Shown here: positions 40,501 through 43,500 of the stretch, piece after piece
How positions within the stretch are numbered: the first letter of the stretch is position 1
Layout: every line of letters begins with the position of its first letter
Assembly: GCF_003334355.1 (NCBI RefSeq)
Contig: NZ_QOWP01000001.1
DNA length: 64,000 nt
Source: Escherichia coli
Lineage (GTDB): Bacteria; Pseudomonadota; Gammaproteobacteria; Enterobacterales; Enterobacteriaceae
Reading direction: 5' to 3' (one strand)
Position numbers: made by a program

Positions 40501-43500
40501 CAATATGGGAAAAACCGACCGCAGCGCCAACCCTTCGCCGGGCAACAAGAAAGGCGGTCTGGCAAACGTGGTAGAGAAGGCACTCGGCTCCATTGCTAAA
40601 TCGGGTAAAAGCGCAATTGTTGAAGTGCTGTCGCCCGGTCAACGCCCGACTAAACGCGGATTAATTTACGCCGCGACGCCAGCCAGCGATTTTGTCTGTG
40701 GCACGCAACAGGTGGCTTCGGGTATCACAGTGCAAGTGTTTACGACCGGTCGTGGTACGCCGTACGGCCTGATGGCGGTACCCGTCATTAAAATGGCAAC
40801 CCGCACCGAGCTGGCGAACCGCTGGTTTGATTTAATGGATATTAATGCGGGCACCATCGCTACCGGCGAAGAAACTATTGAAGAGGTGGGCTGGAAGTTG
40901 TTCCACTTTATTCTCGACGTCGCCAGCGGGAAGAAGAAAACCTTCTCGGATCAATGGGGGCTGCATAACCAGCTGGCGGTGTTTAACCCGGCACCGGTGA
41001 CCTGATTTCTTTTGGAACGTCCCTCGCAAAACATGGCCTTAGTGCCATGTTTTTATTGTTTAAAGCCCCCACGTCCATTAATAATGCATTTGCATTACCT
41101 TAGTTCAAGCTTATAATTTGAGCAGAAAACAGGCTGTAAAAGGACAGTGAATCATGCCCGCTAATGCTCGCTCTCACGCTGTACTGACCACTGAATCAAA
41201 GGTCACGATACGCGGACAAACAACTATCCCCGCGCCAGTGCGTGAGGCCTTAAAACTGAAGCCAGGCCAGGACAGCATTCATTACGAAATTCTGCCTGGT
41301 GGGCAAGTCTTTATGTGCCGACTGGGAGATGAACAGGAGGATCATACTATGAATGCATTTTTGCGTTTTCTGGATGCAGATATCCAGAACAACCCGCAAA
41401 AAACTCGTCCATTCAACATTCAACAAGGAAAGAAACTTGTCGCTGGCATGGACGTCAACATTGATGATGAGATTGGCGACGACGAATAATGGATTTTCCA
41501 CAAAGGGTTAATGGTTGGGCGCTATATGCTCATCCCTGTTTTCAGGAAACCTACGATGCTTTAGTTGCCGAAGTCGAGGCATTAAAGGGAAAAGATCCTG
41601 AAAATTATCAGAGAAAAGCTGCCACAAAGTTATTGGCGGTGGTCCATAAAGTGATTGAGGAGCATATCACGGTCAATCCATCATCACCGGCATTCCGTCA
41701 TGGCAAGTCGTTAGGCTCTGGGAAAAATAAAGACTGGTCACGGGTAAAATTTGGTGCTGGTCGCTATCGTCTCTTCTTTCGTTACAGTGAAAAAGAGAAA
41801 GTCATCATTCTGGGATGGATGAACGATGAAAACACGCTGCGCACCTACGGTAAAAAAACAGATGCCTATACCGTATTCAGTAAAATGTTAAAAAGAGGAC
41901 ATCCTCCTGCCGACTGGGAAAGCCTCACCCAAGAGACAGAAGAAAACCATTGATGGTGTTCACAATGCCCGCCGAACGTATTCGTGTTGACCAGCGGGCA
42001 CCCTTTCTCACTCCCCGACCAGAATCACTTCAACCCCAGCCTTTCGCAGTCCTTCCAGACTATCCGCAGGAATGCCTTCATCAACAATGATCATGTCGAT
42101 ACGTTGAGTATCAATGATCTTATGTAAACTGGAACGATTGAACTTACTGGAATCGGTGACTACGATGATCCGTTCCGCAACTTCGCACATCCGGCGGTTT
42201 AAACGGGCTTCATCTTCATTATGCGTGCTGACGCCGCGCTCCAGATCGATCGCATCTACACCAAGAAACAGCATATCGAAGTGGTAATTTTGCAGCGATT
42301 GTTCAGCCTGATCGCCGTAAAAAGATTGCGACTGACGGCGCAAATGCCCGCCGGTCATCAGCAGCTCAACGCCTTCCGCTTCCAGCAAAGCATTAGCCAC
42401 GTTCATACCGTTGGTCATCGCAATTACGTCAGTGTGCTTGCGCATCAGACGAGCAATCTCAAAAGTGGTGGTCCCGGAATCGAGGATCACCCGATGACCT
42501 GGCTGAATCAACTCAACGGCAGCTTTCGCAACGCTGCGTTTCATCGCGGTGTTCAGTGCGCTTTTATCTTCCACTGATGGCTCGACTGACGGCGTCGTGC
42601 TATCGCAGATCAACGCGCCACCATAGGCACGCACAGCGATCCCCTGCTTTTCCAGAAACGCCAGATCGTTGCGGATCGTCACGGTAGATACGCCATACAA
42701 TGCCGACAGATCGTTAACCTGCACACTCCCTTGCTGTCGCAGACGCTGAATGATCTGTTCTCGTCGCTCGCTGGTGCCTGTCACTCGCTTCTCACCTGAA
42801 GCGTCGGTATTACTCATAGTAAGTCCTTTCGTAAAACTTTCGTTTCATTTCGTTTTGCCTATTAACGCCTTTCTATTAAGCAAATGCAAGCCCACCTTGC
42901 CCATTGACGCAAGCTACTCTCGTTTCAGTGACTTTCATTATGTTTCTTTTGTGAATCAGATCAGAAAACTACTGTCTTTCGTTTTATTTTTATCTCACCA
43001 TGACGCAGTATCAACTGAAACAAAACGAAAGATTAATATCGCAGTAATCTGAACTGGAGAGGAAAGTGAAACATCTAACAGAAATGGTGAGACAGCACAA
43101 AGCGGGCAAAACAAATGCAATTTATGCCGTTTGTTCCGCACATCCGCTGGTGCTGGAAGCTGCAATCCGCTACGCCAGTGCAAACCAAACGCCGTTACTG
43201 ATTGAAGCAACCTCCAATCAGGTAGACCAGTTCGGCGGTTATACCGGAATGACGCCCGCCGATTTTCGCGGCTTTGTTTGTCAGCTCGCCGACTCGTTGA
43301 ATTTCCCGCAGGATGCGTTGATTCTGGGTGGTGACCATCTGGGGCCAAACCGCTGGCAAAACCTGCCAGCCGCTCAGGCAATGGCCAATGCCGATGATTT
43401 GATTAAAAGCTACGTTGCGGCAGGATTCAAAAAAATCCACCTTGATTGCAGCATGTCCTGTCAGGACGATCCAATTCCCTTAACTGATGACATCGTGGCT

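What the first reader, a model, noticed from the sequence alone, without database searches (positions are those of the whole stretch)
41082..41097. 16-bp palindrome upstream of the prlF-yhaV toxin-antitoxin pair
TAATGCATTTGCATTA is a perfect palindrome in the prlF promoter region and a plausible PrlF-YhaV autorepression operator. The TA pair lies between the gar and aga operons.
Basis: partly seen in the sequence, partly recalled or inferred. Interest (0 to 1): 0.2.

Follow-up and report, generated by a model that had tools for sequence, protein, structure and literature searches.

The report
Known PrlF-YhaV operator at prlF promoter
The sequence is a near-palindrome (two 7-base arms around a 2-base centre) over the -35 region of the E. 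coli prlF-yhaV toxin-antitoxin promoter; the same motif precedes prlF relatives in distant bacteria, plasmids and prophages, so it is almost certainly the self-repression site already reported for this system, an ordinary, known feature.

Summary
The 16-mer TAATGCATTTGCATTA is at 41082-41097 as stated. It is not a perfect palindrome: two 7-bp arms (TAATGCA/TGCATTA) flank a non-symmetric TT. As a bare inverted repeat it is unremarkable (about 0.07 expected in the 148-bp intergenic region).

Its position and conservation are what count. The right arm supplies the -35 of the best sigma-70-like promoter (TTTGCA, 17 nt, TATAAT) in front of prlF (PF15937) and yhaV (PF11663), between garD and agaR.

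Among 52 non-redundant prlF-family loci, 35 carry AATGCA-NN-TGCATT within 250 nt upstream. That is 42 hits in 13.9 kb upstream against 0 in 94.6 kb of the remaining sequence. The loci span Enterobacterales, alphaproteobacteria, plasmids and prophages. The site always overlaps core promoter elements and sometimes occurs as 2-3 copies, 17-18 or 22 bp apart. The central two bases vary.

A divergent clade with Lys in place of Arg20 has a variant motif (GTAAGG...CCTTAC).

Reviews of Schmidt et al. 2007 say the PrlF2-YhaV4 complex binds the palindromic promoter sequence. This is the only candidate there. I could not read the primary paper.

Verdict: real, interpretation supported, already known, low interest.

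The parts
41082..41097 (.). Operator: inverted repeat TAATGCA-TT-TGCATTA. Arms are 41082-41088 and 41091-41097; the centre TT at 41089-41090 is not symmetric. The family core AATGCA-NN-TGCATT is 41083-41096.
   Evidence: The core is conserved upstream of 35 of 52 non-redundant prlF-family loci.
41079..41099 (.). Block TAATAATGCATTTGCATTACC, invariant across Escherichia species and Pseudocitrobacter while the flanks diverge. It includes the family-wide R-Y...R-C flanks of the core.
   Evidence: Alignment A3; position frequency matrix. The 32-mer over the site is exact in 4982 E. coli genomes, against 3527 for the 32-mer just upstream.
41089..41094 (+). Predicted -35 hexamer TTTGCA (alternatively TTGCAT, 41090-41095), formed by the centre and right arm of the operator.
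   Evidence: In Enterobacteriaceae relatives a TATAAT, TATACT or TATATT lies 15-16 nt after the 14-mer. This is predicted; no mapped transcription start was available.
41112..41117 (+). Predicted -10 hexamer TATAAT.
   Evidence: conserved in alignment A3.
41154..41489 (+). prlF, antitoxin and DNA-binding repressor (111 aa).
   Evidence: NF007429 at 170 bits against a cut-off of 125; PF15937 at 7e-42; RefSeq annotation.
41489..41953 (+). yhaV, RelE-superfamily toxin and co-repressor (154 aa). Its ATG overlaps the prlF stop codon by one base (TAATG).
   Evidence: PF11663 at 7.5e-54.
41028..41053 (+). garD intrinsic terminator hairpin followed by a T-run. It marks the upstream limit of the prlF promoter region and is not part of the operator.
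   Evidence: I1.

Best explanation
The element is the autoregulatory operator of the prlF-yhaV type II toxin-antitoxin operon. The PrlF antitoxin has an AbrB/MazE-type N-terminal domain. In complex with YhaV, reported as PrlF2-YhaV4 hexamers that pair up on the DNA, it binds the two arms AATGCA and TGCATT. The right arm and centre form the -35 hexamer of the prlF promoter, so an occupied operator keeps RNA polymerase off and the operon represses itself. When PrlF is degraded (Lon is reported) or its C-terminus is lost, as in prlF1-type frameshifts, the operator is vacated and transcription rises. Shown here: the anatomy, the overlap with a predicted promoter, and conservation with the cognate antitoxin gene across the family. 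Taken from the literature: complex formation, binding to the promoter palindrome, and the co-repressor role of YhaV. Inferred: that the published palindrome is this one, that each arm is a half-site, and that repression works by -35 occlusion.
For: Anatomy. Promoter overlap: supported by the constant 15-16 nt distance from the motif to a -10 hexamer in Escherichia, Enterobacter, Pseudocitrobacter, Cedecea and Salmonella-type prophage loci. Family-wide footprint: the motif is present upstream of prlF homologues in Photorhabdus, Cedecea (a perfect 20-bp palindrome GGTAATGCAATTGCATTACC), Enterobacter and Salmonella. It is also present on Pantoea, Fukatsuia, Citrobacter and E. coli IncF plasmids, in Pseudosulfitobacter and Bradyrhizobium, and on about 20 prophage contigs. 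There are 42 hits in 13.9 kb upstream against 0 in 94.6 kb elsewhere in the same loci. The top de novo 6-mers are GTAATG, TAATGC, AATGCA and TTGCAT, found in 23-26 of 35 representative loci against 1-4 in controls. In alphaproteobacterial, Photorhabdus and many prophage loci a separate TTGACA or TTGCCA ends 4 nt before the motif, and the motif fills the spacer and runs into the -10. The motif is therefore conserved where it is not the -35. Protein-DNA co-variation: loci with the canonical motif have T-x-R-x-QTT(I/V)P. The clade with T-x-K-G-QTTIPK has GTAAGG-N-(C/T)C(A/C)TTAC instead. Literature: PMC7781912, PMC8138530, PMC5408214, PMC8076867.
Against: No binding experiment could be run or read. 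The primary paper (Schmidt et al. 2007) is not held, so the identity of the published palindrome with this one rests on it being the only candidate. The promoter is predicted, not mapped. The inverted repeat alone is not statistically unusual. 17 of 52 loci lack the canonical motif; most are very distant homologues or remnants, and some carry the variant motif. The co-variation rests on essentially one clade. No second site is found in E. coli at the 17-18 or 22 bp phasing seen in multi-site relatives. How a 'dimer of hexamers' sits on one 16-bp site is therefore unexplained.
Confidence: 0.9

Rival explanations
1. The sequence is only the -35 region of the prlF promoter, and its symmetry is accidental. 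No repressor recognises it as a dyad.
For: The inverted repeat alone is within chance (about 0.07 expected in the intergenic region). The right arm does coincide with the predicted -35.
Against: The left arm has no promoter role yet is as conserved as the right. In alphaproteobacterial, Photorhabdus and prophage loci a separate TTGACA lies upstream and the whole dyad sits in the spacer. Arrays of 2-3 copies occur.
Confidence: 0.03
2. The dyad is the site of a different regulator, for example CpxR, which is reported to repress prlF, or a global nucleoid protein, rather than PrlF-YhaV.
For: CpxR-dependent repression of prlF is reported (PMC9600279).
Against: That paper's predicted CpxR box is elsewhere: GTAAAaggacaGTGAA, window 41136-41151. 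The dyad travels with prlF genes onto plasmids and prophages of alpha- and gammaproteobacteria and changes with the PrlF N-terminal sequence. That is expected of a cognate operator, not of a host regulator site.
Confidence: 0.03
3. The repeat acts as a nucleic-acid hairpin, either RNA in a garD read-through transcript or a DNA cruciform, rather than as a protein site.
For: A 6-bp stem with a 4-nt loop can be drawn.
Against: The fold is weak and not better than shuffles (-5.2 kcal/mol, z = -1.4, 15 of 200 shuffles as good). It lies after the garD terminator and upstream of the predicted prlF start. Across relatives the arm sequence itself is conserved rather than changing by compensatory substitutions.
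Confidence: 0.01
4. Same operator, different logic: PrlF alone is the primary repressor. YhaV tunes binding by conditional cooperativity, stimulating at low and releasing at high toxin:antitoxin ratio, instead of being an obligate co-repressor.
For: Conditional cooperativity is common in type II systems (review PMC8138530). Multi-site arrays in relatives would suit cooperative higher-order complexes.
Against: The same review files prlF-yhaV under 'toxin is required as a co-repressor'. Nothing in the sequence discriminates between the two.
Confidence: 0.15

Closest known systems
Published prlF-yhaV promoter palindrome bound by the PrlF2-YhaV4 complex (Schmidt et al. 2007, J Mol Biol 372:894, as summarised in PMC7781912)
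   Same: Same organism, same operon and same promoter region. A palindromic sequence bound by the toxin-antitoxin complex gives autorepression. It is the only dyad in the region.
   Different: Nothing known to differ. The exact oligonucleotide used in that paper could not be read here.
mazEF and parD (kis-kid) operators bound by AbrB/MazE-fold antitoxins
   Same: An antitoxin-first operon, a swapped-hairpin-type N-terminal DNA-binding domain, and palindromic sites overlapping the promoter. This comparison rests on general knowledge. A weak PF04014 MazE match (E = 0.0023) was seen here.
   Different: A different recognition sequence. The toxin partner is RelE-like (PF11663), not MazF-like.
yefM-yoeB and relBE operators (paired palindromes overlapping -10 and -35)
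   Same: Autorepression by a toxin-antitoxin complex at short dyads within the core promoter. Relatives of prlF have 2-3 phased sites, like the paired palindromes of yefM-yoeB (cited).
   Different: Different antitoxin folds (Phd/YefM, ribbon-helix-helix). E. coli prlF has one site only.

Membership tests
Type II toxin-antitoxin autoregulatory operator | Lies immediately upstream of an antitoxin-toxin bicistronic operon | tested here: met
   It is 57 nt upstream of the prlF ATG. prlF and yhaV overlap by 1 nt.
Type II toxin-antitoxin autoregulatory operator | Dyad symmetry | tested here: met
   7 + 2 + 7 with 100% complementary arms. It is not a perfect 16-bp palindrome.
Type II toxin-antitoxin autoregulatory operator | Overlaps core promoter elements | tested here: met
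   The right arm is the predicted -35. In relatives the site overlaps the -35 or fills the spacer and -10. The promoter is predicted, not mapped.
Type II toxin-antitoxin autoregulatory operator | Motif co-occurs and co-varies with the cognate antitoxin gene | tested here: met
   35 of 52 loci carry it; 42 hits upstream against 0 elsewhere. The Arg20 and Lys20 clades have different motifs.
Type II toxin-antitoxin autoregulatory operator | Bound by the antitoxin or toxin-antitoxin complex, with repression in vivo | not testable with these tools
   Secondary literature only.
PrlF antitoxin family | Match to PF15937 / NF007429 above the cut-off | tested here: met
   NF007429 at 170 bits against a cut-off of 125; PF15937 at 7e-42.
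YhaV toxin family | Match to PF11663 | tested here: met
   7.5e-54 over 137 of 138 model positions.
AbrB/MazE/SpoVT swapped-hairpin DNA-binding domain | Sequence or fold match of the PrlF N-terminus | tested here: inconclusive
   TIGR01439 at 27.1 bits against a cut-off of 28.3. PF04014 at E = 0.0023. No PDB relative by sequence. No structure was predicted here. The literature assigns the fold.

The most novel reading that the evidence does not exclude
The same operator core (R-Y-AATGCA-NN-TGCATT-R-C) and the same N-terminal recognition motif (T-x-R-x-QTT-I/V-P) are shared by chromosomal prlF-yhaV and by 35-60% identical homologues on IncF and other plasmids and on prophages, including in E. 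coli. PrlF proteins from different replicons may therefore cross-repress each other's promoters. That would create regulatory cross-talk, or anti-addiction, between chromosomal and mobile copies. A side issue is that the operator has moved between two promoter registers: it serves as the -35 in Enterobacteriaceae and as the spacer and -10 elsewhere.
Probability: 0.25. Interest if true: 0.4.

Novelty: already known. Interest (0 to 1): 0.12.

Why it matters
It matters little for discovery, because autorepression of prlF-yhaV through a conserved promoter palindrome was published in 2007. The work here adds three things. It corrects the anatomy to 7 + 2 + 7 with a free central dinucleotide. It gives a family-wide consensus with two promoter architectures and multi-site arrays. 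It points to a candidate specificity residue (Arg20 against Lys20). These could guide operator mutagenesis, structural work (no PrlF or YhaV structure is in the PDB by sequence) and tests of cross-talk between chromosomal and mobile copies.

Tried and rejected
(1) Reading the primary paper (PMC2699681, PMID 17706670 and its DOI) and the older prlF/sohA papers (PMC206513, PMC208636): none is held. A full-text search for the sequence itself returned only unrelated papers.

(2) Reverse specificity test. Scanning viral contigs for TAATGCANNTGCATTA gave at least 120 matches, and none lies next to a PrlF-like gene. These are chance matches in a very large collection, so the test says nothing either way.

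(3) A second operator in E. coli at the 17-18 or 22 bp phasing seen in relatives: none found by eye in the sequence, and no further near-match in the region.

(4) The one-mismatch match at 27712-27725 lies inside a 406-aa ORF and is within chance expectation.

(5) The RNA hairpin reading was rejected.

(6) The Reg-Seq preprint lists prlF and yhaV among its promoters, but no data on them are in the held text or supplement.

Full report
**Observation**

It is not a perfect palindrome. Its reverse complement differs at the two central positions, 41089 and 41090. The element is a 7 + 2 + 7 inverted repeat, TAATGCA / TGCATTA, around TT (I2). Because of the TT centre it can also be read as TGCATT twice in tandem (D3).

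The 64-kb window contains 32 inverted repeats with arms of at least 7 and spacer 0-4. About 0.07 are therefore expected in the 148-bp garD-prlF intergenic region, and the symmetry alone is not significant. Apart from the garD terminator hairpin (41028-41053), it is the only such repeat in that region.

**Context**

- The locus is E. coli garD-prlF-yhaV-agaR. A 1.1-kb stretch is 100% identical to RefSeq chromosomes annotated that way and is present in 5133 of 5426 complete genomes.
- garD matches TIGR03248 and agaR matches NF040755.
- PrlF matches NF007429 at 170 bits against a cut-off of 125, and PF15937 at 7e-42.
- YhaV matches PF11663 at 7.5e-54.
- The yhaV ATG overlaps the prlF stop codon (TAATG).
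- The best sigma-70-like site in front of prlF is TTTGCA (41089-41094), 17 nt, TATAAT (41112-41117), with 10 of 12 matches. The centre and right arm of the repeat therefore form the predicted -35.

**Comparative evidence**

I collected prlF-family loci from several sources:
- one-genome-per-species contigs;
- a Salmonella prophage-like contig;
- plasmids;
- viral and prophage contigs.

The core AATGCA-NN-TGCATT recurs upstream of the antitoxin gene in very different contexts:

| Source | Sequence upstream of prlF |
|---|---|
| Escherichia, Pseudocitrobacter | TAATGCATTTGCATTA |
| Enterobacter | GATGCAATTGCATTA |
| Cedecea | GGTAATGCAATTGCATTACC (perfect 20-bp palindrome) |
| Salmonella-type prophage | GTAATGCATTTGCATTAC |
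| Photorhabdus | ACAATGCATTTGCATTAC |
| Pantoea and Fukatsuia plasmids | two copies, 17 and 18 bp apart |
| Citrobacter and E. coli IncF plasmids | three and two copies, 18 bp apart |
| Pseudosulfitobacter, Bradyrhizobium | CAATGCAAATGCATTAC |

In 52 non-redundant loci, 35 have the core (at most 1 mismatch) within 250 nt upstream. That is 42 hits in 13.9 kb upstream against 0 hits in 94.6 kb of the remaining sequence of the same loci.

An unbiased count of 6-mers in -130..-10 of 35 representative loci puts GTAATG, TAATGC, AATGCA and TTGCAT at the top. They occur in 23-26 loci against 1-4 in control segments.

The position matrix extends the consensus to R-Y-AATGCA-NN-TGCATT-R-C. The central dinucleotide varies: TT 14, AT 7, AA 7, CT 5, AG 2, GG 1, CC 1. 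The centre is a spacer, not part of the symmetry.

Within the genus, the block TAATAATGCATTTGCATTACC and the -10 are invariant while the flanks diverge. Across complete E. coli genomes, the 32-mer over the site is exact in 4982. The 5'-UTR 32-mer is exact in 4980. The 32-mer immediately upstream is exact in only 3527.

**Promoter architecture**

Two registers appear.
- In Escherichia, Enterobacter, Pseudocitrobacter, Cedecea and the Salmonella-type prophages, a TATAAT, TATACT or TATATT lies 15-16 nt after the 14-mer. The right arm (TTGCAT) is then the -35. In these loci position 8 of the core is always T.
- In the alphaproteobacterial, Photorhabdus and many prophage loci, a separate TTGACA or TTGCCA ends 4 nt before the 14-mer. 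The motif fills the spacer, and its last T plus ACCAT, ACTAT or ACCTT reads as the -10.
- In promoters with two sites 22 bp apart, the distal site runs into the TTGACA (GCATTGACA).

In every case an occupied site would exclude RNA polymerase. Because the dyad is conserved where it is not the -35, the 'just a promoter element' rival fails.

**Protein-DNA co-variation**

All loci with the canonical motif encode T-x-R-x-QTT(I/V)P; the Arg corresponds to E. coli R20. A divergent clade (Acetobacter plasmid L029 and prophage contigs L170-L174) encodes T-x-K-G-QTTIPK. It carries GTAAGG-N4-6-(C/T)C(A/C)TTAC instead. This is one clade, so it is only suggestive, but it is what a cognate operator would do.

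**Literature**

The primary paper could not be read. What the held reviews say:
- PMC7781912 summarises it as follows. [quoted passage not shown] The prlF1 insertion near the 3' end derepresses prlF.
- PMC8138530 lists prlF-yhaV among systems where the toxin is needed as co-repressor.
- PMC5408214 states that PrlF controls the operon as a DNA-binding protein.
- PMC8076867 states that PrlF is degraded by Lon.

From my own memory, not verified here, the abstract of Schmidt et al. says the complex binds 'a conserved sequence in the promoter region'.

No structure of PrlF or YhaV is in the PDB by sequence.

**Mechanism**

*Best explanation, confidence about 0.9.* The dyad is the prlF-yhaV operator. 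The PrlF-YhaV complex binds both arms and occludes the -35, so the operon represses itself. Loss of PrlF, or of its C-terminus, derepresses it.
- Shown here: the anatomy, the predicted promoter overlap, and conservation and co-variation with the antitoxin gene.
- From the literature: complex binding and the co-repressor role.
- Inferred: identity with the published palindrome, the half-site assignment, and the occlusion mechanism.

*Unexplained.* How two hexamers fit on a single 16-bp site. The TGCA cores are only 6 bp apart centre to centre, and E. coli has no second site.

*Rivals rejected.*
- Accidental symmetry of a -35 is rejected.
- A CpxR site is rejected because the box predicted in PMC9600279 is at 41136-41151.
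- An RNA hairpin is rejected (-5.2 kcal/mol, z = -1.4).

**Verdict**

The feature is already known. Interest is low.

The most novel reading left open is regulatory cross-talk between chromosomal and plasmid or prophage PrlF-YhaV copies that share the operator core and the recognition motif.

Noticed in passing
window 41411-41424 (inside prlF): There is a heptanucleotide tandem, ATTCAAC x2. PrlF variants of 130, 137, 144 and 151 aa from Shigella sonnei and some E. coli carry (FNIQHST)n followed by the +1-frame tail NKERNLSLAWTSTLMMRLATTNNGFSTKG. That tail is the same as the ORF 41353-41511. By my count of the repeat from the protein sequences, these correspond to 7, 10, 13 and 16 heptamer copies. 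In complete E. coli genomes, 20 of 5426 match beyond the two-copy tract and 9 have at least five copies. This is the same kind of lesion as the classical prlF1 allele. It looks like a slippage-prone tract that replaces the acidic C-terminus and should derepress the operator.
   Followed up: partly
window 41136-41151: GTAAAaggacaGTGAA, ending 3 nt before the prlF ATG, is the CpxR box predicted in the supplement of PMC9600279, which reports CpxR-dependent repression of prlF. It is a second, separate regulatory element in the 5' UTR.
   Followed up: partly
L008:1380-1731 (E. coli strain SCPM-O-B-8794, same garD-adjacent position): This is a remnant of a divergent prlF. It is 66% identical over residues 11-87, has no start codon, is truncated, and has no yhaV match. 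The left operator arm has decayed (CCATACATTTGCATTACC) while the right arm, the -35, is kept.
   Followed up: partly
L022:332-379, L023:352-381, L024:501-532, L025:515-546, L154-L156, L165, L168: Plasmid and prophage prlF homologues carry 2-3 operator copies at fixed phasing: 17-18 bp, or 22 bp with the distal copy running into a TTGACA -35. In the IncF-type plasmids the array lies about 180 nt upstream of the annotated start codon, which implies a long leader.
   Followed up: partly
L029:541-562; L170, L172-L174 about 50 nt upstream of the match: A variant operator, GTAAGG-N-(C/T)C(A/C)TTAC, occurs in the PrlF clade with Lys in place of Arg20 and an extra Lys after QTTIP. Arg20 is a candidate specificity determinant.
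   Followed up: partly
window 27712-27725: AATGCAATTGCCTT matches the operator core with one mismatch. It lies inside a 406-aa ORF on the minus strand, and the count is within chance expectation.
   Followed up: yes
L020/L021:352-1359: The Salmonella prlF-yhaV homologue (61% identity) sits next to an ANT-domain (PF03374) gene, in a prophage-like context. Three close relatives are on IMG/VR contigs. The family is mobile.
   Followed up: no
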